Below are positions 21,639 through 52,450 of a stretch of 64,000 nt of DNA, one piece after another (position 1 is the first letter of the stretch; each line of letters starts with the position of its first letter). The stretch is taken from assembly GCA_049582005.1 (NCBI GenBank), contig JBAUTB010000222.1, forward strand, positions 682-64,681. Direction: 5' to 3'. The DNA comes from Gloeobacterales cyanobacterium (GTDB lineage: Bacteria > Cyanobacteriota > Cyanobacteriia > Gloeobacterales > PMM-0068). The notes beneath the pieces were generated by a model, which saw only the letters and a program-made list of their open reading frames with translations, had not been told where the DNA came from and searched no databases. Made by a program: the position numbers and the translations under genes.

Positions 21639-21817
21639 GTCTTCCATTCTTGTTGCTTCTCGTTCCAAGAAATTGAATTAATGGAACTGATGAGTTACAA
21701 CGGCGGAAGATACCAATGGATCGATTGGCTTTCCTCGCGCCATCCGGCACGGCCTATTATTCCTTTTCTTCGGCACCGCCTAGAGCGGAGCACTCAAAAA
21801 AACTTAAGGAGTACCCT

Positions 21818-22405
21818 ATGTCCTTCGTCCTACCTCCTCTACCTTACGCAAAAACAGCGCTGGAACCCTACCTCACCGAGGAGAACCTCGACCTCCACTA
21901 CAGCAAGCACCACAATGCCTACGTAGTGAACCTCAATAAATTTATTGATGATGGGAAAGTCGATGGCAGCAAGACTTTAGAAGAAGTCATTCTGTCCTCT
22001 GACGGCCCTGTATTTAATAACGCTGCTCAGATTTGGAATCACACTTTCTACTGGAGCTCCCTGAAGCCTGGTGGGGGTGGTGAGCCGACAGGGGCTCTGG
22101 CCGATGCTATAAACCGTGACTTTGGCTCCTTTGCCAAGCTCAAAGAAGAGTTTACCAATGCCGCTGTCAGCCAGTTTGGCTCCGGCTGGGCTTGGTTGGT
22201 TGTAGAAAATGGAAAGCTCAAGGTCACCAAGACCAGCAACGCGGACCTCCCACTCAAGTATGGCCAAACAGCGCTTCTTACCTGTGATGTGTGGGAGCAC
22301 GCCTACTATCCCACCTATAAGAATCTTCGTCCTAAGTATGTCGAGACCTTCTTGAATAGCTTGGTTAACTGGGACTTTGCTGCGGAAAACTTAGCTAAGG
22401 CCTAA
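21818..22405 (+). CDS. sodB: Iron superoxide dismutase
   Basis: The conserved N-terminus MSFVLPPLPYAKTALEPY starts at the ATG at 21818, preceded by AAGGAG at 21806-21811. AAQIWNHTFYW and DVWEHAYY are Fe-type motifs. The track ORF's 34-codon upstream extension is probably not translated. Confidence 0.92.
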   Translation: MSFVLPPLPYAKTALEPYLTEENLDLHYSKHHNAYVVNLNKFIDDGKVDGSKTLEEVILSSDGPVFNNAAQIWNHTFYWSSLKPGGGGEPTGALADAINRDFGSFAKLKEEFTNAAVSQFGSGWAWLVVENGKLKVTKTSNADLPLKYGQTALLTCDVWEHAYYPTYKNLRPKYVETFLNSLVNWDFAAENLAKA

Positions 22406-22453
22406 TCAGGGCCGTTACACTAGCCAGGTTAAAGCTTAAGTCGCCTATCCATG

Positions 22454-22490
22454 AATACCCCCTAATTTTAAGGGGGTATTTCTTGATTTT
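22454..22490 (+). terminator. Rho-independent terminator after sodB
   Basis: Perfect 10-bp stem AATACCCCCT (22454-22463) / AGGGGGTATT (22471-22480) with a 7-nt loop, followed by the T-rich TCTTGATTTT. Confidence 0.8.
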
Positions 22491-22713
22491 CGATTGCTGC
22501 TCTTTGTGCGACGTTACGTTCCCCTATAATTCCAAGAGTTTCTTACTCGGCCTCTTCACTTAGCGTTCGACTACTCGGTCTGCTTACCTAGCGTGTCACT
22601 ACCGACGACGATCAAGGGCTTCATGCGGTAAAACTATGTAGAGCAGACCTGTTAACCTAGCAAAGCATTAAGGAACTATAAAAAATCAGCGCTAAAGTTT
22701 TATCTCTCCTCTC

Positions 22714-24228
22714 ATGAACTCTTTCTCTCCCCTCCGATCTACTCGTGTATTCCTTCGGGAACAGGTGCTAGATGAACGATTGATTCTCTCTTTGCGGAAT
22801 ATGCTCGGGGAGTCTCTGAGAGATATTGTTCCATTGAATTATGTCGCTCCTACTTTATATTTGGGGCACTTTAACCCTATAGACCCTACCGTACAGGCTA
22901 CCTTAAGCCAAAAACTGAAGAGCCCTCTGGAATGGGTCCTGCTGGATGCGGAGGATTATGCATTTTGGCAAGAATATTGCCGTGAGCACATCAAGGACTT
23001 TGAAGATGCCGCTCCTCTGCGGCCAGCCCCACCATCTAAAGTCATGACCACGGTGGGTGCAGACTTAGATGAACGGCAGATCTCTGAGCAGGTTCGCCAA
23101 CTTATCCTGGATGCTCTGGAGTGCCGAGCTTCTGACATTCACTTTGAACCAATGCCCCAGGGGTTGTTGGTGCGTTTCCGTATAGATGGTCTACTCAAAG
23201 AAGTAGCGTTGATGTCTCCTGCCTTAAGTAAGGTGGTGCTAGCACGGGTAAAAGTTCTGGCAGAGCTAGATATAGCAAACCAGCGAACGCCCCAGGATGG
23301 TCGCTCTACAGAATATTTTGGACAAGTGGAAGTAGACCTACGGGTAAGCACCCTGCCTTGTTTACATGGGGAAAAAGCCGTTATCCGTCTTTTACCAAAA
23401 ACTCAATCTTTCCAAATTGAAGAAGTAGGCTTTTCCTTTGACCAACTGAAGCGATTCCGTTCATGGTTGGGCTATAGCCAGGGGCTGGTCTTGATCACAG
23501 GGCCTACGGGTTCAGGAAAAACCAGTACCCTCTACGCTGGCTTGATGAATGTACTCACGCCCACAAAAAACATCGTTACCATTGAAGATCCGATTGAGTA
23601 TCAACTTTCCTCGGTCAATCAGGTCCAGGTGAATCCGAAGGCTGGTTTGACGTTTGCTTCGGGATTGCGGTCTATCTTGCGTCAAGATCCAGATGTGATC
23701 ATGGTGGGGGAAATCCGAGATTTAGAAACGGCCCAGACGGTCTTTCAAGCTGCAGTGACGGGCCACTTGGTCCTGAGTACGCTGCACACCAATGATGCCC
23801 CGAGCACCATTAATCGTCTGTTGGACATGGGAATTGAACCCTATTTGGTGGCTGCTTCTTTGCTGGGGGTGGTAGCGCAGCGTTTGGTTCGGAAGGTCTG
23901 TCCCCATTGCTGTCAGGAATATGAGCCAAAACCTACGGATATTCGCCGTTTAAATGTCGAAAAGGTCCCTCCCGCTACCCGTTGGCAAAAACCGATGGGT
24001 TGTGATCTGTGCAATCATATGGGCTACCTCGGTCGAGAGGGAATCTTTGAAATGATGCCTGTAGACGGGCCTTTGAGACAGATGATCCGTGACCGTGCCA
24101 GTGAGCAACAAATGCGTGTCCATCTGGAACAAAACTTGGGAGAGCGCTCTCTTAACCAATCAGCGGTACAAAAAGTAATGGAAGGGAAAACTTCTATTGA
24201 AGAAGTTCTCAGGGTGGTAACTATCTGA
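22714..24228 (+). CDS. GspE/PilB-family secretion ATPase (T2SS/T4P assembly-ATPase type)
   Basis: 504 aa. Walker A GPTGSGKTST, Asp box IVTIEDPIEYQL, Walker B DPDVIMVGEIRD, His box LVLSTLHTNDA. The tetracysteine CPHCC...CDLC is typical of GspE/PilB-like rather than PilT-like ATPases. The N-terminal region of about 130 aa resembles T2SSE_N. Confidence 0.88.
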   Translation: MNSFSPLRSTRVFLREQVLDERLILSLRNMLGESLRDIVPLNYVAPTLYLGHFNPIDPTVQATLSQKLKSPLEWVLLDAEDYAFWQEYCREHIKDFEDAAPLRPAPPSKVMTTVGADLDERQISEQVRQLILDALECRASDIHFEPMPQGLLVRFRIDGLLKEVALMSPALSKVVLARVKVLAELDIANQRTPQDGRSTEYFGQVEVDLRVSTLPCLHGEKAVIRLLPKTQSFQIEEVGFSFDQLKRFRSWLGYSQGLVLITGPTGSGKTSTLYAGLMNVLTPTKNIVTIEDPIEYQLSSVNQVQVNPKAGLTFASGLRSILRQDPDVIMVGEIRDLETAQTVFQAAVTGHLVLSTLHTNDAPSTINRLLDMGIEPYLVAASLLGVVAQRLVRKVCPHCCQEYEPKPTDIRRLNVEKVPPATRWQKPMGCDLCNHMGYLGREGIFEMMPVDGPLRQMIRDRASEQQMRVHLEQNLGERSLNQSAVQKVMEGKTSIEEVLRVVTI

Positions 24229-24231
24229 ATC

Positions 24232-25338
24232 ATGACCCAGCCCTTCCCCACAGAAGACCCTAAGCTACCCCTCGCTCCGTGGGAAGAGTCGTCCCTAGGC
24301 GACGATTTTGACGTATCAAAGACTCACGGAGCAGAGGTCTTCTACTTGGGAGACGAGGCCGACGAACAGCCCCCCCATCCTCAACCACCCGACCAAGAAG
24401 TAGAGGCTGGTTTCCCTTGGCAATCCAGCAGTCTATCCAATCAAAGAACAACATCGTCAAAGCCTCTCCCTTGGGAGGTCAAAGATATATCTTCTATATC
24501 TTCTGGGCAATCATATCAGACCCAGCCCCGCCCCCAGGTTCCTCCCGTTAGTCCCTCTCGACCGAGTCCTCCAAAAAATTTGCTGCAGCCCAAAAAATTC
24601 ACCTCTGACATCTGGCAGAATGTTCCTATATCGGGCTATGTTACTGCGGCAGCTGTCTTGGTTTTGGGAATGGGAGTGGTGTGGACAGCCAATGGTCTTT
24701 CCAAGGATTCAACAGTCAATGTGCCGCAAAGTGCCATTGTGGCAAAGAATAGTACCGTCGGAGCGGACGGAGGAACTTCTAGCGCATCCATACCCGTGCG
24801 TCCCCTGCGGTCTCGGGTCGTACCCGGTTCATCCTCCAATGAGGCCTCTAAGCCTGGATATATGCCAGAGGCTACTCCTGCGAGGCCAATGGCTCCGCTC
24901 CTGAATGGAAGCGTAAATTCATCGGATTCCACTTCCTCGGGCGAAACCAGTTCTGAATCTTCAACTGAATCCATGTATCTGTCTCCGCTAGCGGCTAGTT
25001 CTGCAGAGGCCGGAGCAGAGGGTGGGCCCCAAAATCCTTTTGCGCCTGCTTATCCTGCGCCAAAGCCTGCGGAGGAACCAAAACCGACCCTAACACCCCC
25101 TCCTGTAAGGCCTTTACCCTTGCCTCCCCCGCCCAAAGTGCTACCAGCGGTCCTTTCTCTAGAGGGAGTCGCTACGGATGGAAAGACAAAATTAGCGATT
25201 GTGCGGGTTGGGGATCAGCCCCTCACCGCAGAGGTGCAAGTTGGTACAACAATAGAAGGCTGGACGGTCACCGCTATCAAGGACCAGACCGTTACCCTCC
25301 GCAAATATAAACAACAACAGGTGCTCCGGCTGCCATGA
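24232..25338 (+). CDS. Bitopic Pro/Ser-rich protein with a C-terminal GspC/PilP-like (HR) domain
   Basis: 368 aa, starting 3 nt after the ATPase stop. Acidic, Pro-rich N-terminal region of about 130 aa. One TM segment (ISGYVTAAAVLVLGMGVVW). A low-complexity S/P/A linker of about 170 aa. The last ~70 aa (LSLEGVATDGKTKLAIVRVGDQPLTAEVQVGTTIEGWTVTAIKDQTVTLRKYKQQQVLRL) fit the GspC-HR/PilP pattern (L.G......A.I.....Y.VG..I.G..V..I....V.L). Confidence 0.6.
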   Translation: MTQPFPTEDPKLPLAPWEESSLGDDFDVSKTHGAEVFYLGDEADEQPPHPQPPDQEVEAGFPWQSSSLSNQRTTSSKPLPWEVKDISSISSGQSYQTQPRPQVPPVSPSRPSPPKNLLQPKKFTSDIWQNVPISGYVTAAAVLVLGMGVVWTANGLSKDSTVNVPQSAIVAKNSTVGADGGTSSASIPVRPLRSRVVPGSSSNEASKPGYMPEATPARPMAPLLNGSVNSSDSTSSGETSSESSTESMYLSPLAASSAEAGAEGGPQNPFAPAYPAPKPAEEPKPTLTPPPVRPLPLPPPPKVLPAVLSLEGVATDGKTKLAIVRVGDQPLTAEVQVGTTIEGWTVTAIKDQTVTLRKYKQQQVLRLP

Positions 25339-27317
25339 ACAAGAAAATGCTCAGTTCTGCCTTGACTGTTTTAGGGATACTGCTTTCTACTCAGCTTCCC
25401 CTCCTGGCAGCTCCTGTCCTCACTCAATTGAATCCCACCGCTAATGGCTTGGAATTATCCGCCAATGAGTCACTGGGCTATCGCGTCCTCAAGCAAGATG
25501 CCAAACAGGTCGTTGTGCTCTTACCTGGAGCAAAGTTAGGTTCTCTCAGCCCTCAATACACGGCGAATGTAGGTCAGGTCAACCTAGCAGAGAATGCCCA
25601 AGGGGTCCAAATGACCGTGGATTTTGCCAATAATGGATTGGCTTATGTCTTTCGTATGAACAAACAGAATTCTGCGCTTGTGTTGGAGTCGATTAAGCCT
25701 GCTGAAGCGATCGCAAAATCTTTGAATAATCCCTCTCTATCCGTACAGCCCGTCTCTTCCCCATCTTCTAATGCTGGCCCACGGGTCAATCTCAAGGTGC
25801 GAGATGGAGAAGTGCGGGACGCCTTAACCCTACTGAGCCGAGTTTCTAAAACCAGTATCGTCACCAACCAGGAAGTAAAAGGAAAAGTTACGCTGAACTT
25901 AGAAAACACCACCTTTGATGAAGCCCTAAAATCTTTGACGAGCGCTGCAGGCCTCCGCACCGAAAAAGTAGGGAATGTTTTCGTGGTCAGCCAGCCTGCT
26001 TCCCAGCAGCCTAACGCCTCTGGAGGTGGCGGGAATAGCCCTAATCCCTTGCGATCTTTGAATCCTAAAGAATTTCAAGGAGATCCTGGACGCCGATTGG
26101 TTTCGGTTATTGCTAATTCCACGCCTCTGAATGTAGCCCTACAAGAAATGGCTAACCAGGTAGGGGTGGATATTGTCATTAATGGGGAGTTGACAGAACC
26201 CGTGACAGCCCGCTTAGTTTCTAGACCCTTCGAAGATGCCTTAAAGCAACTGTTGCTCGGTACTAACTTTGGTTTCATCCGCGATGGAGATACCTATCGA
26301 GTCGGAGATGCTACCCCTGGTTCACCTGCAGCTCGTAATTTTGACGATGTGCAAGTGATCAAGCTAGCCTATAGCGATGCAAAAGATGTCTTGGCGGCTC
26401 TTCCTCCTGATACCCGTGCTCAAGGGATTAAGGTAGATGCTGCCCGTAATGCCTTGATTGTCTCAGGACCCTCTAATTTCCAGGCAAGTATCAAACGTTT
26501 TGTGCAAACGGTAGACACTCCGATTCAGCAAGTCAGTTTCTCTGTCAAAGCTTTTCAGTTGGACGAGGGGGGCAGTAGGGAATTTGATGTTCTAAAAGGG
26601 GCCGATCCAAGCCTAGGAGCCATAGCTACTGCTAATGCTACAAATCCTATCAGTTTGGCAGGTGCAATTGCGGGAACTAATGTTGCCATGTATAACAACA
26701 TCGCTCTTTCATTAAGCATTATTAATGGACTTATCAATGAGAATAAGGGGAGAGTTTTAACGGATACAAAATTGACCACTATGAGTGGGCAGAAAGCTTC
26801 CATAGATGTGAGTCAAGACATCAATGTACGGATCACGACGCCCATCAATACGGGGGGTACTTCAACAATCAGTAGTCAGTTCCAGACCATTCGTGCAGGT
26901 AATGTGATCGAAATTGAACCTGTGATTCGCGCAGACGGAAAAGTGTTTGCTTCTATATCCGTTGAAGCCTCTGTCCCTGTGAGAAAAACCATTTTGCCCG
27001 ATGTGGCTCCTGATATTAACCGTAGAAAAGTAACGAATAAGTTGATTCTTGAAGATGGACAGACCTTAGAAATTGGTGGTTTGATTCAGGAGACTATTAC
27101 AGAGACCAAACGACGTTTGCCCCTTTTTGGATATTTGCCGCTAGTCGGAGAGTTCTTCAGCGATACGGGAGAAGACAAGACCACTAATCAGCTCTTGGTT
27201 TTTATCACTCCCTACCTCAGCCGGGCTCCTCAAGCTTCCGTCCCCACCCTGGATCCAGCCCCTAAACGGCCTTCTGCGCCTGGTATTTCGCTTCCCTCGC
27301 AATCAGGAGTGCGGTAA
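25335..27317 (+). CDS. Outer-membrane secretin (GspD/PilQ family)
   Basis: 660 aa. The start overlaps the upstream stop (ATGA at 25335-25338). Signal peptide, then an AMIN-like N-terminal domain. Next come two STN/N0-like modules, both fitting ...IV.N.E....VT..L....F.DALK.L, then an N1-like module (VQVIKLAYSDAKDVLAAL...). The C-terminal secretin signature is RRLPLFGYLPLVGEFF...NQLLVFITPYL. Confidence 0.88.
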   Translation: MNKKMLSSALTVLGILLSTQLPLLAAPVLTQLNPTANGLELSANESLGYRVLKQDAKQVVVLLPGAKLGSLSPQYTANVGQVNLAENAQGVQMTVDFANNGLAYVFRMNKQNSALVLESIKPAEAIAKSLNNPSLSVQPVSSPSSNAGPRVNLKVRDGEVRDALTLLSRVSKTSIVTNQEVKGKVTLNLENTTFDEALKSLTSAAGLRTEKVGNVFVVSQPASQQPNASGGGGNSPNPLRSLNPKEFQGDPGRRLVSVIANSTPLNVALQEMANQVGVDIVINGELTEPVTARLVSRPFEDALKQLLLGTNFGFIRDGDTYRVGDATPGSPAARNFDDVQVIKLAYSDAKDVLAALPPDTRAQGIKVDAARNALIVSGPSNFQASIKRFVQTVDTPIQQVSFSVKAFQLDEGGSREFDVLKGADPSLGAIATANATNPISLAGAIAGTNVAMYNNIALSLSIINGLINENKGRVLTDTKLTTMSGQKASIDVSQDINVRITTPINTGGTSTISSQFQTIRAGNVIEIEPVIRADGKVFASISVEASVPVRKTILPDVAPDINRRKVTNKLILEDGQTLEIGGLIQETITETKRRLPLFGYLPLVGEFFSDTGEDKTTNQLLVFITPYLSRAPQASVPTLDPAPKRPSAPGISLPSQSGVR

Positions 27318-27333
27318 CAACCTACGGCTCAAC

Positions 27334-28059
27334 CTAATTAGCCGCCGTACTTGGGGCATTTTCTCCAATATGCTGCTGGATGGCGTAGGCTTGCATCCCC
27401 TGGAGCACCGCAAGCTCTGAAAATGCCTCTGTTAGTTTTGCGTGGGCTTCATCGCTCACGCTTGCTTCGATTCGTTTCATCAGGTCAGTTACCCGTTCTC
27501 CCTGCGCTTGAATCTCCTCTGGGTCAATCCGGCCATCAGCAATAGCCCGTTGCCACGATTCCATACGCTGGAAAAATTGAGCTGAATACACTTCGTTGGT
27601 CTCTTCGTTAAACCAACTGGTAGGCAACTCTACTGGAGTCGAAGGCGTAGGAGCGACTTGTTCCGTCGAAGTACTGCCGGTGGGCAAAGCCGACTCGATG
27701 ACTTTCCAGACTTCCTGATCGAGCTGGTATTGTTCCCACGTACCCCAGGCTGCCGGTAAGACTAGAGGCAAAAAGAGCAACAAGCCAATGCCTGCCACAA
27801 TCAGTTTATCGGCCCAGGCTCCTGCTCCGATCTTGACTTCGAGGGATTGGTCAGCCAGGGGCTTAATTTGGATGGTCAAAGCAGCGGCAAGACCAACGGC
27901 CACGCGCCAAATATCATCTCGGTAGCCTTGAATCACCAAGCTGCCATCCGGCAAACGAAGCAGCTGCGTTTCATATTCATGGCCCACAAACCAAAGCCGC
28001 ATTTTCTCCGCCAGATCTTGAGCCGTCAGCCCTGGGGCGTAGTAAGTTCTTGTTTGCAT
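27334..28059 (-). CDS. Hypothetical protein: fusion of a membrane-anchored N-domain and a helical C-domain (paralogs of the two upstream genes)
   Basis: 241 aa. Residues ~1-125 align without gaps to the 147-aa ORF (WF....ETQ.L..P....IQG..D......GL.AALT......L.V.IGA..W.DK...LF.P...A.G.W.Q..L....W..I...LP). Residues ~148-225 align to the 109-aa ORF (SWF....Y...FQRM.SWQ.AIADG.I.PEEI..Q...V..L...E..VSD.....TE...E.AVLQ.MQA). No family recognised. Confidence 0.7.
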   Translation of the reverse strand: MQTRTYYAPGLTAQDLAEKMRLWFVGHEYETQLLRLPDGSLVIQGYRDDIWRVAVGLAAALTIQIKPLADQSLEVKIGAGAWADKLIVAGIGLLLFLPLVLPAAWGTWEQYQLDQEVWKVIESALPTGSTSTEQVAPTPSTPVELPTSWFNEETNEVYSAQFFQRMESWQRAIADGRIDPEEIQAQGERVTDLMKRIEASVSDEAHAKLTEAFSELAVLQGMQAYAIQQHIGENAPSTAAN

Positions 28060-28070
28060 AGCAATTCTCC

Positions 28071-28514
28071 TCAGGGCGTTAACTTAACAGACTGGAAAGG
28101 TGGGGTAGGAACTTGGACTGCCACCTCGACGGCACCCGGTAGCCGTTTGGAGATGTATGTCCAGAGTTTGTCTTCGAGATTATCCTGCTGCCAAACCCCA
28201 TAGGCGGCGGTAAAAGCGAAGGGAGCGAACAAGAAGACGCCTGCAAAGCCTGCTAAATATTTATCTACCCAACTACTGGCTCCGATGGAAACGGTCAACG
28301 CTCCATCGGCCTGAGTCCCCACGGTGACGGTAAGTGCCGCCGAAAGCCCAAAGAAAAAGCGGATAAGATTGTCTTTGCGCCCTTGAATGATGAAGGTATT
28401 TTCAGGACCGACAAGGGTTTGGGTTTCGAAGTCTTCGGAACGAAACCATGACTCAATGGAAGTGGCCAGATATTGGGGCGAAGTATCTGGAATTTGATAG
28501 GCTTTGACTTTCAT
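28071..28514 (-). CDS. Hypothetical membrane-anchored protein, paralog of the N-domain of 27334-28059
   Basis: 147 aa. One hydrophobic segment (LAGFAGVFLFAPFAFTAAYGVW). An 11-nt gap to the downstream gene and a 9-nt gap to the upstream gene on the same strand. Confidence 0.7.
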   Translation of the reverse strand: MKVKAYQIPDTSPQYLATSIESWFRSEDFETQTLVGPENTFIIQGRKDNLIRFFFGLSAALTVTVGTQADGALTVSIGASSWVDKYLAGFAGVFLFAPFAFTAAYGVWQQDNLEDKLWTYISKRLPGAVEVAVQVPTPPFQSVKLTP

Positions 28515-28523
28515 GATGATTCC

Positions 28524-28814
28524 TTACTGATTTTTCTGCAGGGAACTGGTAACGGCAGAAGCTTGCATCGCCTGTAGTACCGCCATTTCATACAGCGTCT
28601 CGGTGATCATCTGGCGTTCAGCGTCGCTTACAAGAGGCTCTACTTCTTTCAGCAATGCAATCACCTTATGGGCCTGGTCCCGAATTTCTTCAGGGGTGAT
28701 TTTGCCGTCCGCTATTGCCTGCTGCCAAGAAGCCATTCGCTGAAAATACTCAGATAGATATAAAGGTCCTTTTTCTTGGTCAAACCAGCTAATACGCGAT
28801 GATTCCTCTACCAT
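28524..28814 (-). CDS. Hypothetical helical protein, paralog of the C-domain of 27334-28059
   Basis: The track ORF runs to 28853 (109 aa). The internal ATG at 28814 is preceded by GGGAGAAAGAAGAAC and gives MVEESSRISWFDQEKG... (96 aa). The choice of start is uncertain. Confidence 0.65.
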   Translation of the reverse strand: MVEESSRISWFDQEKGPLYLSEYFQRMASWQQAIADGKITPEEIRDQAHKVIALLKEVEPLVSDAERQMITETLYEMAVLQAMQASAVTSSLQKNQ

Positions 28815-29002
28815 GTTCTTCTTTCTCCCTAGGAATATCCGTCGTTTCAACATACTTCAGAAATTTAGCATTGCTTGCCCTTATAAGCCTCTACCTTGAG
28901 GAAGAGCTGAAAGGCATAAGCAGCGTGGAAGAACAGAAGCTACTCTAGCAATAAGGGACTCGGAAAACAAAGTGGCTTCCCAAAAGTAAGGTTAGAAATG
29001 TT

Positions 29003-30058: not shown

Positions 30059-30184
30059 AGGCAGGAACTTTTATAGATAGAAGAAGCTCAGTCATCGGCT
30101 TTGCACAAAATCCAATGATGATGCACCTAGCGGAATGGGTAGCCTGAAATCAAGCTTATTTATTGAGGAGTGCACAACAGAACC

Positions 30185-31507
30185 ATGAACCTACGTCTTA
30201 TGGCAAAAGGTGTATTAGGGATCATGTTTCTCTTGACAGGAGGATGGTTATCGCAAGGCTTAACGAAGTCTCTGCCCACAGTGCTTGCTCAAGCTCCTTT
30301 AAACAGTACAGGGGCCACGATCATTGCCCAACCCGGAGAAAAATTTCCGCAATTAGTGCGGAGGGGAGAACAAACGGCTCGTTCTCTGTTGGAACCACTC
30401 TTTGCCGCAGGGGCTCAGGAAGGCTACATACAAATCGGAGTAAAAAGTCGTAGTAGTATATTTCCTTTAATGGATGTGCGGGTGTCGCGCGCGGATTGGT
30501 CCCAGAAGCCCTCTTCTTTGCTCCCATACAGCCGCGTATTTACAGAGACCGAGAGTTTAATAGAATTCTCCCCGACTCCAAAGGCAGACATAATAAAACG
30601 TCCTGCCAAATCTCCCAGTACAACTTCTGCAACAACCTCATCTGAGAATAAAAAGACTGCAGAAGGCCAACAAGCCACTCCAGAAAACAAAAAAGTGGAT
30701 AGTTCGACTAGTTCGACGGGATCAATCGCTGAACCTTCAAGCAACCAACTGAGCTCTAGCGCTCCAAAGGCAGACAGCAAGAGAGTTCCTGTCAATACCC
30801 CGATTATGCTTAGTTTTAAAGACCTCCTGGCAAAGGACGTAAAGAGTTTAGGGGTCCAAATTATGCCTGCACCGAAAGGAGGCAATGAATCCCTTTCAGA
30901 TAAAACCTATCAATTTACGCCCCAGCCCCGCTTGGGCTATAGTACGGAATACACTGTTACGGTGAGTGGGTCCAAGGAAAAGCCCCTCAAAGAACCGATC
31001 AAACTCAAGTTCACCACTGAGCCTCAGTACACCTATAAGAAAGATATCCAGACCATGCTGGCAGGTACCTGCACCAGCTGCCACAGTACCACGGGGACCC
31101 AACGCAATCGCTCGGAATTGGATACCTATGCGAAAGTCTTGAAGTACGTTACCCCAGGAATAGGAGGCGAGCTCATCAATCCCAAGTGGTTAGCACTCCA
31201 TGCAAGCGGTGGAGGAACGGGAGGACCAGGTTTTCTCCCAAAAGCAGGTCTTCGCCAACGAGGCGATAAAGTGATTGGTGGAGGCGGAGCCACTTCTGCC
31301 AATCCCTTTGGCACCGTAGCACCCTCATCGACCACAAGTGCTACAGGAACGGCCAGCACCGCAGATAGCTTGCAAGGTAATGCAGGTTCATCCCTTAGTA
31401 CCGATACCAGCAATGTTTCACGAGGTAACCGTCAAGGTGCGCTAACCGATGAACAGGTAACCATTCTAAAGACATGGATTGTTCAAGATAAAGCGGTAGA
31501 AGAATAG
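30185..31507 (+). CDS. Secreted multidomain protein: unknown N-domain, Ser/Thr-rich linker, Ig-like domain, and CXXCH (PSCyt1-like) putative heme-c domain
   Basis: The track ORF starts at a GTG at 30170. The ATG at 30185 gives the signal-like MNLRLMAKGVLGIMFLLTGGW. The Ig-like (SbsA-type) pattern is VPVNTPIMLSF...YQFTPQPRLGYSTEYTVTVSG. Then IQTMLAGTCTSCHS...LTDEQVTILKTWIVQDKA, resembling the planctomycete-type cytochrome c domain. Confidence 0.6.
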   Translation: MNLRLMAKGVLGIMFLLTGGWLSQGLTKSLPTVLAQAPLNSTGATIIAQPGEKFPQLVRRGEQTARSLLEPLFAAGAQEGYIQIGVKSRSSIFPLMDVRVSRADWSQKPSSLLPYSRVFTETESLIEFSPTPKADIIKRPAKSPSTTSATTSSENKKTAEGQQATPENKKVDSSTSSTGSIAEPSSNQLSSSAPKADSKRVPVNTPIMLSFKDLLAKDVKSLGVQIMPAPKGGNESLSDKTYQFTPQPRLGYSTEYTVTVSGSKEKPLKEPIKLKFTTEPQYTYKKDIQTMLAGTCTSCHSTTGTQRNRSELDTYAKVLKYVTPGIGGELINPKWLALHASGGGTGGPGFLPKAGLRQRGDKVIGGGGATSANPFGTVAPSSTTSATGTASTADSLQGNAGSSLSTDTSNVSRGNRQGALTDEQVTILKTWIVQDKAVEE

Positions 31508-48902: not shown

Positions 48903-49574
48903 TTGGTCCTAACAACTGATCATCGATTAGGTGTCTTATTTCAAAAGCTTGAAAGCGGACAAGTTCCACCCGTTGTGGAACATTTCGACCGGGGAAAGAC
49001 TATCTTCTTTCCTGGGGATCCTGCAGAGCGAGTCTATTTTTTAGTCAAGGGAGCGGTGAAGCTTTCTAGAGTGTTTGATAATGGTGAAGAAATTACAGTT
49101 TCTTTGCTTAGAGAGAACAGTGTCTTTGGGGTTCTCTCAATCATCACAGGACATCGTTCTGATCGTTTTTATCATGCCGTAGCAATTACTCCGGTTGAAT
49201 TATTGGCTGCCAATATTGACCAAGTGGAGAAGGCGCTTCGTAATGATGCAGAGCTTTCTTCCATTCTGCTCAAGGGATTGGCTTCACGTATTCTGCAAAC
49301 AGAGATGATGATTGAGACCTTGGCTCACCGAGATATGGGTTCTCGCTTAGAGAGTTTCATCTTGATCCTTTGTCGAGATTTTGGGGTTCCTGGGCGAGAC
49401 GGGATCACCATTGACCTCAGGCTTTCTCACCAGGCTATAGCGGAAGCCATTGGCTCTACACGAGTCACGATTACCCGATTGCTCGGCGAGTTGAAGAAGA
49501 AAAATTTGATCTCCATCCACAAGAAAAAGATCACGGTTCGCGATCCTGTTCAACTTGGTCAGCGATTTACCTAG
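48903..49574 (+). CDS. ntcA: Global nitrogen regulator NtcA (CRP/FNR family)
   Basis: 223 aa. [23 protein letters not shown]...[34 protein letters not shown]...[34 protein letters not shown]...[28 protein letters not shown]...[10 protein letters not shown] is nearly identical in pattern to characterised NtcA. It apparently uses a TTG start. Confidence 0.96.
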
Positions 49575-49782: not shown

Positions 49783-50661
49783 CTAGCTAGTAGAGGAGGA
49801 TTCTTCTAAAGGAGAGGCGACTGCTGGAGCGTCGATTTGGACAGTTTCTATGGAAGCAGAAGTGCTTGACCAGCGTTTAGCCAAACGAGAAAAAGAAGCG
49901 GGATTGCCAGATACATAGAAGTTGGTTTTTCCAGGTTTAGTGCTGTTACTCAATAGGCCTAGGAGTTGAAGTTCTCGATTCACCGCTAAAGCTGTTTCCA
50001 CGGAAGGATCTACTAAGGTGATGTAGTCTGGCAAAAAACTTCTGAATAGGGGTTCGAGGTGGGGGTAATGCGTACAGCCATAGACCAAGGTATCAATTCT
50101 TTCGTTGAGTAGAGGCTGCAAATAGTTGATTGCTATTTTTCTGGCTTGACGGTTGTTAACCTGCCCTGACTCTACCAAGGGAACGAATTCCGGACAGGCT
50201 ACTTCGAAAACTTGTACAGTAGGGTCCAATTCTTTCATAGCACTGGTATAGGCTTGGCTCCGCACAGTGGCCTGAGTAGCGATAACTCCGATCCTACGTC
50301 CTCGCTGGACCGCTGCCTTGGCACCGGGGAGGATTAATCCCACAATGGGGGTTTGAAATTCTTGGCGCACTACTTCCAAGGCCAGAGCACAGCTTGTATT
50401 ACAGGCAGCGACTACCAATTTGACCCCCTGGTGCTCCATCCAGGTCATGGTGTCCCGCATAAATTGCTGTATTTCTTCAGAGGAGCGGTTCCCGTAAGGA
50501 ACTCGAGCGGTATCGCCAAAGTAGGTTTTATTCTCTTTGGGGAGCAACTTTTGGAGCTGGTTTAAAAAGGTTAAACCCCCAACACCACTATCAAAAATAC
50601 CAATAGGTTTAGACACAGGCTCAAGTCCTTTCTTACTTTTGGAAGTATTCATCCAAAGCAC
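49783..50661 (-). CDS. murI: Glutamate racemase
   Basis: 292 aa. IGIFDSGVGGLT, VVACNTS and YGCTHYP (the two catalytic Cys contexts). The start overlaps the upstream amidase stop. Confidence 0.92.
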   Translation of the reverse strand: MLWMNTSKSKKGLEPVSKPIGIFDSGVGGLTFLNQLQKLLPKENKTYFGDTARVPYGNRSSEEIQQFMRDTMTWMEHQGVKLVVAACNTSCALALEVVRQEFQTPIVGLILPGAKAAVQRGRRIGVIATQATVRSQAYTSAMKELDPTVQVFEVACPEFVPLVESGQVNNRQARKIAINYLQPLLNERIDTLVYGCTHYPHLEPLFRSFLPDYITLVDPSVETALAVNRELQLLGLLSNSTKPGKTNFYVSGNPASFSRLAKRWSSTSASIETVQIDAPAVASPLEESSSTS

Positions 50662-52450
50662 GGGCTATGGATTCTGCAGCGAGACGTTGGTGAGGAGCCT
50701 GGGAAACGAGAGCTAGTTCGGCCGGGTTGGTTATGTAGCCCATTTCCACAAGAATAGCAGGCATTGTGGTTTTGCGGATTACGTAGAAGCGGGCAGTACG
50801 TAGACCACGGTCTGGCTGGCCCACCCTGCTAATGAGGTTACGATGGACGATTTTGGCTAACCTGTGGCTATTTTCCCTTATATAGTAAGTTTGGATGCCG
50901 TCGGTTGCCGTATTTTCACTAGCATTATGGTGAATACTAACAAAAATATTCGCATTAACCTGCTCCGCTATATCTACTCTGCCCTGTAGCGGAATAAATC
51001 GATCATCCTCGCGTGTAAAGACTACCCGGTATCCTTTTTGAGATAGAATTTGCCCCAGATATTGGGCTACTTGGAAATTCAACGTCTTTTCATTACGGCC
51101 TCCAGCCATGGCTCCTGGGTCTGTGCCTCCGTGGCCTGGGTCAATGACTACTAGGGGCCCTTCTCCTGTAGGCTGACCAATTTGGCCTTTATTGAACTGG
51201 ATGATGAACTGATTTTTCCTGGATTCCGCTTTTGTCACCTGAATGCCCGGCCCTAAAGCCAAAACAGCGGAGACTTCGCTGCCGGGGTCTTGAAATATCC
51301 GAAGACGGTCTAGAGGCCCTTTAGTGGTCAATTTAGGGCCGCTGAGGGTCTGTGCAGGCAGAGAAATTCCTGGGAATGTTACTTTATAGTTGTTGCCGGT
51401 AAATTCAGCCTTAGCTTGTAAAGGACCATCGCCAACAAAGATTAAACGGTCGCCAATTAAGCGGACGGCGAGCAAGTTACCCGCTCTTTTTTGAATTACG
51501 GCTAATTGGCCCGCAGGAACTAAGCGTACGCCCTTTACGCTGGGATCATAAGCCGTTTCCCAATCAGCCACCTCTTGGTCTATGTCCAACACGATGCGCG
51601 TGATGGGGGGTCGATTCTGGAATTGTCCAAGACGAATTTGTTGGATCCCGAGGCGATTAGCTGGAAAAGATCGCTCTTTCGTCGCAGTGGAGATGATCGT
51701 GTTTGGAAGGTCTACGATCAAACGATCTGGACTATCTACCCGGCGCACCGAAGCATCAGTTGGTCCACTGGTTCGGATAATAAAACCTTGGGCGGTGTTA
51801 TCAATACCCTCAAAGCGGACCATGGCTCTGAGCTCTTGTTTTGTAAGTGATGGAGAAGCTAAGGGTGGAGGGTTAGGATTTGGAACTGGATTAGGATTTG
51901 GAACTGGATTAGGATTTGGAACTGGATTAGGATTTGGAACTGGATTAGGATTTGGAACTGGATTAGGATTTGGAACTAGATTAGGATTTGGAACTGGATT
52001 AGGCGCTTGTGACGGGTCTGTATTCGGAATTCCTTGACTCAATTGAACCTGCCAACGATTGAATCCTCGATTGTCAAGTTCATATTGTTCTGGACGAAGC
52101 TCTTCGGGGACACGCAGCTGGATAACAAGGCGTGCTATCTCTGGGGTAAACTGTGCAGTGCGGATTTCCTCCACAAGGCCCGTTGGGAACTGTTGACTAT
52201 TGGAACGTTCCAAGGTCGCTGCGGGTAAGTCCATAATCAACCGACTCGGTCCCGCTTTCGTGGAGAGAATCGGTATGGTAACGCCCTTGGTTGTGATTTC
52301 TAAAAGTTGTCTATTAGGGTCATAGGACCAGGAGAGCAATCGCGGACGTTCTATGCCTCCAGGTGCAGCCCACACAGGAAATAGAGGATGGCTGCACCCC
52401 CAGAAGAACACTATCAATAGCGTCAATACCCGCTTCAACATGGCCCTCAC
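50633..52450 (-). CDS. amiC: N-acetylmuramoyl-L-alanine amidase (AmiC-type: AMIN domains, Pro/Asn linker, Amidase_3 domain)
   Basis: 605 aa with a signal peptide. Two AMIN-like repeats (..RLIMDLP.. and ..RLIVDLPNT..). A (PNPNPV)n linker. C-terminal VVIDPGHGGTDPGA...SIHHNA...E.GYITN. Confidence 0.9.
   Translation of the reverse strand: MRAMLKRVLTLLIVFFWGCSHPLFPVWAAPGGIERPRLLSWSYDPNRQLLEITTKGVTIPILSTKAGPSRLIMDLPAATLERSNSQQFPTGLVEEIRTAQFTPEIARLVIQLRVPEELRPEQYELDNRGFNRWQVQLSQGIPNTDPSQAPNPVPNPNLVPNPNPVPNPNPVPNPNPVPNPNPVPNPNPVPNPNPPPLASPSLTKQELRAMVRFEGIDNTAQGFIIRTSGPTDASVRRVDSPDRLIVDLPNTIISTATKERSFPANRLGIQQIRLGQFQNRPPITRIVLDIDQEVADWETAYDPSVKGVRLVPAGQLAVIQKRAGNLLAVRLIGDRLIFVGDGPLQAKAEFTGNNYKVTFPGISLPAQTLSGPKLTTKGPLDRLRIFQDPGSEVSAVLALGPGIQVTKAESRKNQFIIQFNKGQIGQPTGEGPLVVIDPGHGGTDPGAMAGGRNEKTLNFQVAQYLGQILSQKGYRVVFTREDDRFIPLQGRVDIAEQVNANIFVSIHHNASENTATDGIQTYYIRENSHRLAKIVHRNLISRVGQPDRGLRTARFYVIRKTTMPAILVEMGYITNPAELALVSQAPHQRLAAESIARALDEYFQK
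51870..52003. repeat. 18-bp tandem repeat (about 7.4 copies) inside amiC, encoding the (VPNPNP)n linker
   Basis: The unit GGATTAGGATTTGGAACT starts at 51870, 51888, 51906, 51924, 51942, 51960 and 51978, plus a partial copy. The five central copies are identical and the outer copies differ by single substitutions. Confidence 0.95.

What the first reader, a model, noticed from the sequence alone, without database searches (positions are those of the whole stretch)
22714..27317. Self-contained three-gene operon (GspE/PilB-type ATPase, bitopic HR-domain protein, secretin) with no platform protein, alignment complex or pilins in cis
Seen in sequence:
- Three same-strand ORFs are tightly coupled, with a 3-nt gap and then an ATGA overlap.
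- The sodB terminator hairpin (22454-22490) lies upstream, and a convergent operon begins 16 nt after the secretin stop. The transcription unit therefore appears to hold only these three genes.
- The ATPase carries the full Walker A, Asp-box, Walker B and His-box set plus the tetracysteine motif.
- The last gene has the C-terminal secretin signature.

Established knowledge:
- T2SS and type IV pilus machines need a polytopic platform protein (GspF/PilC).
- They also need GspL/M or PilM/N/O, pilins or pseudopilins, and a prepilin peptidase.
- In cyanobacteria the PilQ secretin is normally the last gene of pilMNOQ.

Inference: an ATPase directly operon-linked to a secretin through one bridging protein is not a standard layout. 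It could be a reduced or novel envelope-spanning export or uptake module, or a dedicated secretin/ATPase pair that borrows components encoded elsewhere.
Basis: partly seen in the sequence, partly recalled or inferred. Interest (0 to 1): 0.72.

Follow-up and report, generated by a model that had tools for sequence, protein, structure and literature searches.

The report
Reduced secretion-machine operon in basal cyanobacteria
Three tightly linked genes in an early-branching (Gloeobacterales) cyanobacterium encode a motor ATPase, a membrane-spanning connector and an outer-membrane pore. Together they look like the conserved core of a slimmed-down type II secretion-like machine, a kind of system that published surveys report as missing from cyanobacteria.

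Summary
Three coupled genes encode a GspE/PilB-family ATPase (22714-24228), a bitopic protein (24232-25338) and a secretin with two STN domains (25335-27317). The bitopic protein's C-terminal domain is predicted to fold like the GspC-HR/PilP domain. No platform, pilin or alignment gene lies anywhere in the 64 kb.

The window is a Gloeobacterales MAG contig. ATPase-secretin linkage is conserved in every Gloeobacterales genus sampled, in different genomic contexts each time.

The "self-contained" look is local and derived. All six nearest relatives carry three prepilin-like genes divergently upstream of the ATPase. Gloeobacter and Anthocerotibacter carry a giant gene with a pilin-like N-terminus downstream. 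In the window, homology to relatives starts right after the sodB terminator.

The two nearest non-Gloeobacterales secretins whose context could be read close complete GspF-G-H-I-J-K-L-M clusters. No crown-cyanobacterial PilQ was found among the nearest relatives. The nearest ATPases are melainabacterial and are always followed by a connector-like gene.

Best reading: the energising and outer-membrane core of a reduced, T2SS-derived type IV filament machine that borrows its platform, major pilin and peptidase from elsewhere.

I could not check directly whether these genomes also hold a separate canonical pilMNOQ. This is a new variant of a known kind, of moderate interest.

The parts
22453..22490 (+). 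Intrinsic terminator of the upstream sodB gene. It marks the upstream boundary of the unit, and homology to related genomes breaks just here.
   Evidence: Hairpin GAATACCCCCT...AGGGGGTATT followed by a T-run. Alignment with L012/L013/L050 shows homology starting at about 22500.
22500..22713 (+). Conserved upstream leader and promoter region of the operon. Two blocks are conserved in relatives: 22597-22630 (CACTACCGACGACGATCAAGGGCTTCATGCGGTA) and 22648-22679 (CCTGTTAACCTAG...AAGGAACTAT). A TATAAT lies at 22525-22530.
   Evidence: DNA alignments A7 and A8. No Rfam family matches and there is no convincing conserved fold. The function is inferred only.
22714..24228 (+). GspE/PilB-family secretion ATPase, 504 aa. 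It has one degenerate N-terminal domain (residues 1-118) and a complete catalytic core, and it ends without any C-terminal extension.
   Evidence: Pfam T2SSE 1e-125. NCBIfam GspE 504 bits (cut-off 630) and PilB 472 bits (cut-off 675). Motifs. Orthologues at 55-59% identity in Gloeobacter, Anthocerotibacter and Cyanaurora; the next best are Melainabacteria.
23500..23523 (+). Walker A motif (GPTGSGKT) of the ATPase.
23899..24012 (+). Tetracysteine (CPHC...CDLC) zinc-binding motif of the ATPase C-terminal domain.
24232..25338 (+). Bitopic connector protein, 368 aa. It has a disordered acidic, proline-rich cytoplasmic tail, one TM helix, a long Pro/Ser-rich periplasmic linker and a C-terminal GspC-HR/PilP-like domain.
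   Evidence: AF2 model, Foldseek, weak NCBIfam GspC_delta 2e-5 and PilP 0.035. 16 orthologues; alignments A1 and A3.
24412..24420 (+). Invariant FPW motif (residues 61-63) in the cytoplasmic tail of the connector. It is the candidate docking site for the ATPase.
   Evidence: F61, P62 and W63 are invariant or nearly so in 11 Gloeobacterales and melainabacterial sequences. Motif list. The role is inferred.
24628..24690 (+). Single transmembrane helix of the connector (residues 133-153), preceded by K115/K121/K122, which suggests an N-in topology.
   Evidence: The positive-inside rule was read from the sequence.
25129..25335 (+). HR (GspC/PilP-type) beta domain of the connector (residues 300-368).
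   Evidence: pLDDT about 90, six strands. The top ten PDB matches are all GspC-HR, PulC-HR or PilP. The same domain ends the 831-aa Anthocerotibacter protein (blastp 6e-8).
25335..27317 (+). Secretin, 660 aa. Order of domains: signal peptide, all-beta N-terminal domain (28-120), two STN/N0-type domains (150-219 and 255-325), N1/Secretin_N (339-393), secretin beta-barrel (399-629).
   Evidence: Pfam; NCBIfam PilQ 158 bits (cut-off 284) and GspD 121 bits (cut-off 351); AF2 model; generic secretin fold matches.
25782..26309 (+). Tandem STN/N0-type periplasmic domains of the secretin. They are the expected binding site for the HR domain.
   Evidence: Pfam STN with two stretches; AF2 secondary structure. 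The same double-STN architecture occurs in the T2SS-cluster secretin P0182. Binding is inferred by analogy with PDB 3OSS.
27334..28059 (-). First gene of the convergent three-gene set, marking the downstream boundary. It is not part of the system. It is syntenic in all near relatives.

Best explanation
The three genes encode the energising and outer-membrane core of a reduced type IV filament machine descended from a type II secretion system.

**Components**
- a hexameric GspE-type ATPase;
- a single-pass connector;
- a secretin with two STN domains.

**Proposed working**
- The connector's periplasmic HR domain binds the secretin's N0/STN ring, as GspC binds GspD.
- The connector's cytoplasmic tail, with an invariant FPW motif, recruits the ATPase.
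- One protein therefore lines the motor up beneath the pore.

**The rest of the machine**
- It still uses pilin-like subunits. These are three minor-pilin-type genes in the nearest relatives and a giant protein with a pilin-like N-terminus in Gloeobacter and Anthocerotibacter.
- Its platform protein, major pilin and prepilin peptidase are never encoded in cis. They are presumably encoded elsewhere or shared with the type IVa pilus genes.

**Output:** probably export of folded proteins, or of a short fibre.

**Status of each step**
- Shown: gene anatomy, folds, conservation of linkage, and relatives' gene content.
- Inferred: both protein contacts, the borrowing of parts, and the substrate.

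In this particular genome a rearrangement (or an assembly join) next to the sodB terminator has separated the operon from its pilin genes.
For: 1. **Linkage is conserved in unrelated flanks.**
   - G. violaceus: ATPase then secretin gll0920.
   - Anthocerotibacter: ATPase, 279-aa connector, secretin, 831-aa protein.
   - Cyanaurora: a pure triad followed by gyrA.
   - Other Gloeobacterales MAGs.
2. **Pilin genes accompany it in relatives.**
   - Six of six near relatives (L012, L013, L047-L050) have three N_methyl-type genes, one of them GspH-like, divergent from the ATPase.
   - Gloeobacter has a 713-761 aa protein with a weak PilX_N-type N-terminus (4.4e-4, below the Pfam cut-off) after the secretin.
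3. **The connector fold matches GspC-HR and PilP**.
4. **The nearest secretins outside the order come from T2SS clusters.**
   - Named ones are from Bacillota, Syntrophothermus, Desantisbacteria and similar groups.
   - The two whose context could be read (Halanaerobacter L046; P0182 in L051/L052) close complete GspF-G-H-I-J-K-L-M clusters.
   - BLASTP gives 125-136 bits to these, against 71 bits to a proteobacterial T4aP PilQ.
   - The L046 ATPase passes the GspE equivalog cut-off.
5. **The ATPase is not PilB1-like.**
   - It has no C-terminal extension (criterion from PMC4390875).
   - None of the best 120 homologues has the length I recall (about 670 aa) for crown-cyanobacterial PilB1.
6. 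**ATPase and connector are coupled beyond the order.** Three of three melainabacterial loci have the orthologous ATPase followed by one bitopic protein with the same tail motif, TM helix, (N/D)PF motif and C-terminal domain.
7. **Published surveys score G. violaceus as having PilB1, PilC, PilT, PilM, PilN, PilO and PilQ homologues** (PMC7690421; PMC7292380). Donors for the missing parts therefore exist.
Against: - I could not read a whole Gloeobacterales genome. It is therefore unproven that a separate canonical PilQ or pilMNOQ exists, or where any platform protein is.
- No GspF, GspG, GspL, GspM or peptidase gene lies within 10 kb of the module in any of the roughly 15 loci seen. 'Borrowing' is an assumption.
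- The connector-ATPase and connector-secretin contacts are untested.
- Homology of the melainabacterial partners rests on shared architecture, short motifs and a weak profile match (hhalign E = 2e-4 over 35 columns).
- Gloeobacter proper lacks the connector gene in cis, so the connector is not indispensable in cis.
- NCBIfam scores are below every equivalog cut-off.
- There are no expression or functional data.
Confidence: 0.55

Rival explanations
1. The secretin is simply the Gloeobacterales type IVa pilus secretin (PilQ) and the middle protein is its PilP. PilP is unlinked from pilMNOQ in crown cyanobacteria but sits next to pilQ here. The ATPase is an accessory PilB2-type motor that serves the same pilus machine.
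For: - NCBIfam ranks PilQ (158 bits) above GspD (121 bits), and JGI and NCBI annotators call relatives 'PilQ'.
- The HR domain matches PilP as well as GspC.
- Reviews say cyanobacterial PilP is encoded away from pilMNOQ and is longer than usual (PMC12288463).
- Minor-pilin-like genes next to the operon are equally typical of T4aP.
- I did not see a third, canonical PilQ in any Gloeobacterales sequence.
- A pilB2 mutant of Synechocystis has reduced transformation.
Against: - No crown-cyanobacterial PilQ appears among the 30 nearest clusters looked up. Where context is visible, the neighbours are T2SS-cluster secretins.
- No AMIN domain is detectable.
- No pilMNO gene is adjacent in any locus.
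- The PilQ bit-score quotient published for G. violaceus (1.4, which I estimate at roughly 250 bits, PMC7292380) exceeds the BLASTP scores measured for this secretin against four of the five non-Gloeobacterales secretins compared (71-136 bits). The exception is one unnamed metagenomic secretin, P0177, at 241 bits. This hints at a different, closer PilQ.
- The connector is coupled to the ATPase even where no secretin is adjacent (Melainabacteria), which is unlike PilP.
Confidence: 0.25
2. A truly minimal, platform-less trans-envelope machine. A GspE-type ATPase is tethered directly to a secretin by one bitopic protein, works without GspF/PilC or GspL/M, and possibly works without pilins. It would be functionally analogous to the filamentous-phage pI/pXI-pIV exporter.
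For: - In the window and in Cyanaurora the three genes stand alone.
- No platform gene lies near the module in any locus.
- The connector combines a cytoplasmic tail with a secretin-binding fold in one chain.
Against: - Pilin-type genes are adjacent in most lineages, which implies filament assembly. In every studied system that requires a platform protein (established knowledge of T2SS and T4P).
- The closest secretin relatives read in context belong to complete T2SS clusters.
- The window's isolation is explained by a local rearrangement.
Confidence: 0.08
3. A dedicated DNA-uptake (competence) pseudopilus module rather than a protein exporter.
For: - The secretin gives weak HofQ hits (116 bits), and the connector C-terminal domain gives weak HofP hits in 3 of 10 family members (E = 0.042).
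- Minor pilins are needed for competence in S. elongatus (PMC7125226).
- pilB2 affects transformation in Synechocystis.
Against: - There are no com genes nearby and all scores are far below cut-offs.
- The closest secretin relatives read in context are in GspG-containing T2SS clusters.
- Nothing in the sequence discriminates between possible substrates.
Confidence: 0.07
4. A decaying remnant of an ancestral secretion system with no present function.
For: - Partner genes (platform, major pilin, L/M) are missing in cis.
- Gene content varies between genera: the connector is lost in Gloeobacter, and the giant pilin is absent here.
Against: - All three ORFs are intact and all catalytic motifs are present.
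- The ATPase is 94% identical in protein against about 90% in DNA to L012.
- The HR domain and FPW motif are invariant over 16 orthologues.
- Translational coupling is preserved.
- The module has been retained in every Gloeobacterales genus sampled.
Confidence: 0.03

Closest known systems
Type II secretion system, GspE-GspC-GspD sub-assembly (e.g. the ETEC GspC-HR/GspD-N0 complex PDB 3OSS; Klebsiella PulC/PulD 6HCG)
   Same: - A GspE-family ATPase with a tetracysteine motif.
- A bitopic inner-membrane protein whose C-terminal HR fold matches GspC-HR (TM-score 0.77).
- A secretin with N0/STN-type domains.
- Minor-pseudopilin-like genes (one GspH-like) next to the module in relatives.
   Different: - No GspF, G, L, M or O in cis in any locus.
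- The connector has a long cytoplasmic tail with a conserved FPW motif and lacks the PDZ or coiled-coil end of GspC.
- The secretin has an extra all-beta N-terminal domain and two STN domains, and no S-domain was recognised.
- All NCBIfam scores are below the equivalog cut-offs.
T2SS clusters seen with the nearest non-Gloeobacterales secretins (Halanaerobacter jeridensis L046; metagenomic L051/L052 of unknown organism)
   Same: - They carry the closest secretins outside Gloeobacterales whose context could be read, and P0182 shares the double-STN architecture.
- The L046 ATPase is 48-49% identical.
- They hold H/I/J/K-type minor pseudopilins.
   Different: - These clusters are complete (GspE-F-G-H-I-J-K-L-M-D in one operon) and have no GspC/HR protein.
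- The Gloeobacterales module keeps only E and D, plus pilins in some lineages, and adds an HR connector.
Type IVa pilus PilB / PilP / PilQ, and the cyanobacterial pilMNOQ and pilB1-pilT1-pilC loci
   Same: - Same protein superfamilies.
- The HR fold equals the PilP core.
- PilQ is the best-scoring secretin model.
- Cyanobacterial PilP is also unlinked from pilMNO.
   Different: - Not adjacent to pilMNO or to pilT/pilC.
- The ATPase lacks the PilB1 C-terminal zinc-finger extension.
- No AMIN domain is detectable.
- The connector is a TM protein with a cytoplasmic tail, not a lipoprotein.
- No crown-cyanobacterial PilQ was seen among the nearest relatives.
Cyanobacterial 'PilB2' (second PilB homologue, e.g. 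Synechocystis slr0079), function unresolved
   Same: An extra PilB/GspE-like ATPase without the PilB1-specific C-terminal domain, encoded away from pilT/pilC.
   Different: - Orthology was not tested because no reference sequence was available.
- As far as I know, PilB2 has not been reported as operon-linked to a secretin or an HR protein.
Filamentous-phage assembly-export machine pI/pXI-pIV
   Same: A minimal layout in which an inner-membrane ATPase component contacts a secretin directly, without a polytopic platform.
   Different: - pI is a Zot-type ATPase fused to its own TM segment, not a soluble GspE-type hexamer.
- There is no HR domain, and it is phage-encoded.
- The analogy concerns architecture only.
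Reduced T2SS of Chlamydiae (classed 'generic' by Denise et al. 2019, PMC6668835)
   Same: A precedent for a T2SS-related system that lacks recognisable GspL/M and minor pilins.
   Different: Chlamydial systems keep GspF and GspG in the system. Here the missing parts are the platform and the major pilin.

Membership tests
Type II secretion system (Gsp) | GspE ATPase (NCBIfam TIGR02533 equivalog) | tested here: not met
   504 bits against a cut-off of 630. This is family-level membership only (Pfam T2SSE 1e-125). The Halanaerobacter T2SS ATPase passes the cut-off (635 bits).
Type II secretion system (Gsp) | GspD secretin (TIGR02517 equivalog) | tested here: not met
   121 bits against a cut-off of 351. 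The Pfam Secretin, STN and Secretin_N domains are present.
Type II secretion system (Gsp) | GspC with an HR domain contacting the secretin N0 domain | tested here: inconclusive
   The fold match to GspC-HR is good (3oss_C TM-score 0.77, rmsd 1.8 A). The sequence score is weak (GspC_delta 24.5 bits against a cut-off of 150). The contact itself was not testable.
Type II secretion system (Gsp) | GspF platform protein in the system | tested here: not met
   No T2SSF hit among the larger window ORFs scanned, nor within 10 kb in about 15 related loci.
Type II secretion system (Gsp) | Major pseudopilin GspG and minor pseudopilins GspH-K | tested here: inconclusive
   None in the window. Near relatives have three N_methyl genes, one weakly GspH-like, and Gloeobacter has a protein with a weak PilX_N-type N-terminus. 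No GspG was seen in any locus.
Type II secretion system (Gsp) | GspL/GspM assembly platform and GspO peptidase | tested here: not met
   Absent in cis in every locus examined. The rest of the genome was not testable.
Type IVa pilus machine (cyanobacterial type) | PilQ secretin (TIGR02515), as the last gene of pilMNOQ | tested here: not met
   158 bits against a cut-off of 284. The upstream genes are an ATPase and an HR protein, not pilMNO. No AMIN domain is detectable.
Type IVa pilus machine (cyanobacterial type) | PilB1: TIGR02538 equivalog, a C-terminal extension with an extra tetracysteine zinc finger, and the pilB1-pilT1-pilC context | tested here: not met
   472 bits against a cut-off of 675. 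The protein ends at residue 504, right after the core. The criterion comes from PMC4390875. There is no pilT or pilC nearby.
Type IVa pilus machine (cyanobacterial type) | PilP lipoprotein with an HR-type beta domain | tested here: inconclusive
   The fold matches PilP (2y4y, 2lc4, 3jc8_Pa). TIGR03021 gives only 15 bits against a cut-off of 34.65. No lipobox was noticed by eye. Instead there is an N-in TM helix with a 130-aa cytoplasmic tail.
Type IVa pilus machine (cyanobacterial type) | This is the sole secretin and sole PilB-type ATPase of the genome | not testable with these tools
   Only 64 kb of the genome is available. Literature tables score G. violaceus positive for PilB1, PilM, PilN, PilO and PilQ but give no locus tags. 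Gloeobacter also has a shorter paralogous secretin.
Filamentous-phage pI/pIV exporter | Zot-type membrane-anchored ATPase (pI) plus secretin, in a phage context | tested here: not met
   The ATPase is a soluble T2SSE type. The context is chromosomal housekeeping genes.

The most novel reading that the evidence does not exclude
The ATPase-connector-secretin triad is a functional machine in its own right. A single bitopic protein, with an FPW-tail, a TM helix and an HR domain, replaces the whole GspL/M/C or PilM/N/O/P alignment complex. It tethers a GspE-type motor directly under a secretin and works without a polytopic platform. On this reading the module is an ancestral Cyanobacteriota system, retained in Gloeobacterales and partly in Melainabacteria and lost in crown cyanobacteria.
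Probability: 0.1. Interest if true: 0.85.

Novelty: new variant of a known kind. Interest (0 to 1): 0.55.

Why it matters
- **T2SS in cyanobacteria.** Surveys report no dedicated type II secretion system in cyanobacteria (Denise et al. 2019, as summarised in PMC7690835), and how these organisms export folded proteins is poorly understood. This locus shows that the earliest-branching order keeps a conserved operon for an ATPase, an HR connector and a secretin. The closest relatives of that secretin read in context sit in complete T2SS clusters.
- **Evolution.** The ATPase-connector pair is also present in non-photosynthetic Melainabacteria. That points to an ancestral secretion or filament system in Cyanobacteriota that crown cyanobacteria lost or remodelled.
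- **Mechanism.** The connector family combines a conserved cytoplasmic motif with a secretin-binding fold in one chain. It suggests a simpler way to align a motor with its pore, and two or three interaction experiments would test this.
- **Annotation.** 'PilQ' and 'GspE' labels in Gloeobacterales genomes should not be read as the canonical pilus genes without checking.

Tried and rejected
- **Canonical pilMNOQ or PilB1 in Gloeobacterales.** I tried to verify this directly and could not. Literature tables give presence or absence without locus tags. The supplements of Denise et al. held as text contain no Gloeobacter entry.
- **AMIN identity of the secretin N-terminal domain.** There was no Pfam hit. 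hhalign against proteobacterial PilQ AMIN regions gave E = 0.029 at 1.7% probability. BLASTP against the AMIN-bearing AmiC of the same window found nothing. Rejected as unsupported.
- **PDB sequence-profile search with the HR domain.** Only noise was returned. The fold search was needed instead.
- **Fold search with the whole secretin model.** It matched T2SS, T3SS, T4P and phage secretins alike and did not discriminate.
- **RNA element in the conserved leader.** There was no Rfam match and no covarying structure.
- **Homologues of the giant pilin-like protein, the small secreted protein and the three pilins elsewhere in the window.** None were found. The one short match (22572-22628) lies in the conserved leader, which is non-coding in L012 and L013, so I do not treat it as a gene remnant.
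- **Shared contig length of P0048 and P0051.** This proved uninformative. P0051 has a low-GC-type composition and belongs to an unplaced family of 565-570 aa ATPases.

Full report
**1. What is in the sequence**

The window carries three + strand ORFs at 22714-24228 (504 aa), 24232-25338 (368 aa) and 25335-27317 (660 aa).
- The first two are separated by 3 nt. The last two share an ATGA overlap.
- Upstream lies sodB (21716-22405), with a clear intrinsic terminator at 22453-22481 followed by a T-run.
- Downstream, a convergent gene ends 16 nt after the secretin stop.
- Protein 1 is a T2SSE ATPase (Pfam 1e-125). It has Walker A (residue 263), an Asp box (291), Walker B (329), a His box (349) and the CPHC...CDLC tetracysteine (396/430).
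- Protein 3 has Secretin, Secretin_N and two STN stretches.
- Protein 2 has no Pfam hit. NCBIfam gives only weak GspC_delta (2e-5) and PilP (0.035) matches.

**2. The middle protein**

An AlphaFold2 model built on 16 orthologues shows four regions:
- a disordered N-terminal 130 residues;
- one TM helix (133-153), preceded by lysines;
- a long disordered Pro/Ser-rich linker;
- a confident (pLDDT about 90) six-strand domain at residues 300-368.

The ten best Foldseek matches in the PDB to that domain are all GspC-HR, PulC-HR or PilP. Examples are 3oss_C (TM-score 0.77, rmsd 1.8 A over 63 columns), 2y4y, 2lc4, 3jc8_Pa, 6hcg_e and 2ivw. E-values are modest (2e-3 at best) because the domain is small, but the ranking is unambiguous. 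A PDB sequence-profile search found nothing.

The protein is therefore a bitopic GspC/PilP-type connector with an N-in, C-out topology. It carries an unusually long cytoplasmic tail.

**3. Context in the window**

The window is a contig of a Gloeobacterales cyanobacterium MAG, according to the names attached to P0001 and P0156. All the other larger, non-overlapped ORFs (mostly over 150 aa) were scanned with Pfam.
- They are housekeeping or unrelated genes: dnaG, topA, radA, rpsA, two ABC1 kinases, tal, gnd, sodB, an AI-2E transporter, murQ-like, ruvA, ychF, a GH38 mannosidase, psaA/psaB, a Crp-family regulator, an AMIN-AmiC amidase, uvrD and others.
- No T2SSF, pilin, PilM/N/O or peptidase gene is present.
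- A six-frame prepilin-motif scan of the window is empty.

**4. Conservation of the linkage**

The secretin has orthologues only in Gloeobacterales. Close relatives are 81-89% identical, A. panamensis 42% and G. violaceus gll0920 39%. The gene orders are:

| Lineage | Gene order |
|---|---|
| G. violaceus | ATPase, secretin, 761-aa protein, 174-aa protein (no middle gene) |
| A. panamensis | ATPase, 279-aa connector, secretin, 831-aa protein |
| A Gloeobacter-like metagenomic contig and three MAGs | ATPase, secretin, 713-761 aa protein, 141-186 aa protein |
| Cyanaurora vandensis | ATPase, 268-aa connector, secretin, then gyrA (a pure triad) |

- The flanking genes differ in every genus. The module is what is conserved, not the neighbourhood.
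- The 713-831 aa proteins begin RRGF(T/S)L followed by a hydrophobic stretch. This is a pilin-like, E5-less N-terminus. The Gloeobacter protein hits PilX_N weakly, below the Pfam cut-off (4.4e-4); the Anthocerotibacter protein does not.
- The Anthocerotibacter protein ends in the same HR-like domain as the window's connector (blastp 6e-8).

**5. The window is the exception among its closest relatives**

A genome-collection scan plus contig look-ups recovered six loci with 82-89% identical secretins: L012, L013 and L047-L050.
- All six have three overlapping prepilin-type genes (175, 184-185 and 233-253 aa) immediately and divergently upstream of the ATPase. Their cleavage-site motifs are G|FALLEV, G|FTLVEV and G|V(S/T)LVE. 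They carry Pfam N_methyl, and the middle one is weakly GspH-like.
- Two loci also have a 169-216 aa secreted protein that is homologous to the 174-aa Gloeobacter gene.
- Downstream synteny with the window is perfect: three convergent small genes, the AI-2E transporter and onward beyond 36 kb.
- Upstream homology stops at about 22500, directly after the sodB terminator.
- About 200 nt of leader are retained, including two blocks conserved even in L013 and L047 (22597-30 and 22648-79). These blocks match no Rfam family and show no covarying fold.

The absence of pilins in cis is therefore a derived state of this genome, or an assembly join. It is not a property of the system.

**6. Relatives outside the order: the secretin**

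An exhaustive HMMER search of 1.84 billion representatives found 138 secretins at E <= 1e-30. Of these, 30 clusters were looked up by name.
- Apart from Gloeobacter itself, the named ones come from Bacillota/Firmicutes, Syntrophothermus, Desantisbacteria and unclassified MAGs.
- None is a crown cyanobacterium, although most clusters carry no name.
- Context could be read for two of them. Halanaerobacter jeridensis (L046) has a GspK-like gene, a GspE that passes the equivalog cut-off, GspF, GspG (T2SSG 1e-40), three further pilins, a PilM/N-type GspL and a 182-aa protein, and then the secretin.
- P0182 (L051/L052) has GspF-G-H-I-J-K-L-M followed by a double-STN secretin.
- BLASTP of the window secretin gives 125-136 bits to these T2SS-cluster secretins. 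It gives 71 bits to a proteobacterial pilMNOPQ PilQ.

**7. Relatives outside the order: the ATPase and its partner**

After Gloeobacterales (55-59% identity), the best 120 hits are 45-57% identical ATPases of about 390-580 aa. The named ones are Melainabacteria, Caenarcaniphilales or 'Cyanobacteria bacterium' MAGs. None has the length I recall (about 670 aa) for crown PilB1.

In all three melainabacterial-type loci examined, the ATPase is followed by one unannotated gene (473-627 aa) and no secretin. These partner proteins share the connector's plan:
- an acidic tail with WPP or FPW(E) motifs;
- one TM helix;
- a G-R-x-(N/D)-P-F motif;
- a C-terminal beta domain with the conserved Trp.

F61, P62, W63, P269, F270 and W344 of the window protein are invariant or nearly so across 11 sequences. 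Profile-profile support is weak (E = 2e-4 over 35 columns), so I call the homology probable rather than proven. The persistent ATPase-connector pairing, even without a secretin next door, is the main reason to propose that the tail docks the ATPase.

**8. Is it just PilB1/PilQ?**

For the ATPase, no.
- It ends 10 residues after the core. It lacks the C-terminal zinc-finger extension that PMC4390875 describes as the hallmark of cyanobacterial PilB1.
- It is not next to pilT or pilC.
- PilB scores below GspE, and both are below their cut-offs.
- Published bit-score quotients for G. violaceus give PilB1 0.7 where Synechocystis self scores 1.6 (PMC7292380). By my rough estimate, assuming a self-score of about 1,350-1,400 bits for a protein of about 670 aa, this implies a PilB1 homologue scoring about 600 bits. 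That is more than this family reaches against anything outside the order (476 bits or less). This is an inference from published numbers.

For the secretin, the question stays open.
- The literature scores Gloeobacter positive for PilM, PilN, PilO and PilQ, but without locus tags.
- I could not read a whole genome.
- The T2SS-type neighbours, the missing AMIN domain and the lack of pilMNO adjacency argue against orthology with crown PilQ. They do not exclude that this pore also serves the pilus.

**9. Proposed mechanism**

Shown:
- the three gene products and their folds;
- translational coupling;
- order-wide linkage;
- pilin genes in cis in most lineages;
- T2SS-type ancestry of the secretin, judged from its closest relatives read in context.

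Inferred:
- the HR domain binds the secretin STN/N0 ring, by analogy with PDB 3OSS and 6HCG;
- the FPW tail binds the ATPase N-terminal domain;
- the connector thereby does in one chain what GspL plus GspC (or PilM/N/O/P) do together;
- a short pseudopilus primed by the H/I/J(/K)-like pilins is assembled on a platform protein encoded elsewhere, possibly the T4aP PilC, with PilD and a major pilin also borrowed;
- the output is protein export or a short fibre.

I put 0.55 on this reading, 0.25 on the 'T4aP PilP-PilQ plus accessory ATPase' reading, and about 0.1 on a genuinely platform-less minimal machine.

**10. Novelty**

I found no paper describing this module. Reviews state that cyanobacteria lack a dedicated T2SS, and that Gloeobacter only shows 'generic' type IV filament systems.
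- The parts belong to known superfamilies, so this is a new variant of a known kind.
- It is an E-C-D core operon of T2SS descent, with a new connector family.
- It is confined to the basal cyanobacterial order, and the ATPase-connector pair is shared with Melainabacteria.

Interest is moderate (0.55). It bears on the evolution of secretion in Cyanobacteriota and offers a testable simplified motor-to-pore linkage. No function has been demonstrated, and the key whole-genome inventory is still missing.

Noticed in passing
L018 7136-11455 ('Aphanocapsa lilacina HA4352-LM1', a G. violaceus-like MAG); also P0324 of G. kilaueensis: There is a second, shorter paralogue of this secretin. It is 551 aa (519 aa in G. 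kilaueensis), 62% identical to gll0920, and lacks the N-terminal beta domain. It lies directly after genes that, read by eye without an HMM scan, look like an HlyD/MacA-type adaptor and a MacB/FtsX-type permease. That would place a secretin where a TolC-type channel would be expected. GenBank annotates it as PilQ in G. kilaueensis.
   Followed up: partly
L007 10001-13612, L008 10001-13048, L009 10001-13147 (Melainabacteria-type MAGs): There is a conserved two-gene unit. It consists of the orthologous GspE-like ATPase plus one unannotated bitopic protein, which has an acidic tail with WPP/FPW motifs, one TM helix, a GRxNPF motif and a C-terminal beta domain. No secretin lies nearby.
   Followed up: partly
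window 27334-28853 (- strand): Three convergent genes without Pfam hits form a paralogue set. The 241-aa protein equals the 147-aa protein in its N-terminal half (2e-33) plus the 109-aa protein in its C-terminal half (1e-27). This is a fused/split gene pair, syntenic in all near relatives.
   Followed up: partly
window 22597-22630 and 22648-22679: Two non-coding blocks in the leader of the ATPase gene are conserved across relatives, including those where the neighbouring gene differs. There is no Rfam match and no covarying structure, so this may be a regulator-binding site or a promoter.
   Followed up: partly
L001 5692-8229 (G. violaceus): An 845-aa protein lies divergently upstream of the ATPase. 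It has a cNMP-binding domain and a sigma-54-activator AAA+ domain. This is odd, because to my knowledge cyanobacteria lack sigma-54.
   Followed up: no
L002 422-4023 (Anthocerotibacter panamensis): A prokaryotic Argonaute (Piwi domain, 786 aa) sits next to a DpnII/MboI-type gene, flanked by resolvases, a few kb upstream of the module. It is probably a mobile defence islet.
   Followed up: no
window 48903-49574 and 50633-52450: A Crp-family cNMP-binding regulator and an AmiC-type amidase with two AMIN domains lie in the same window. To my knowledge, Crp-type regulators control pilus genes in Synechocystis. No link to the operon was examined.
   Followed up: no
P0051, P0057 and about 20 similar hits: A family of 565-570 aa GspE-like ATPases is 48% identical over 92% of the query. 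They have a degenerate first cysteine pair (CSCH or CPCH) and a low-GC-type composition. Their origin is unknown, and they may be the crown-cyanobacterial 'PilB2'.
   Followed up: partly
window 30170-31507: A 445-aa secreted Ser/Thr-rich protein has a Big_5 domain and a CTSCH (CxxCH-type) motif. It is syntenic in relatives.
   Followed up: no
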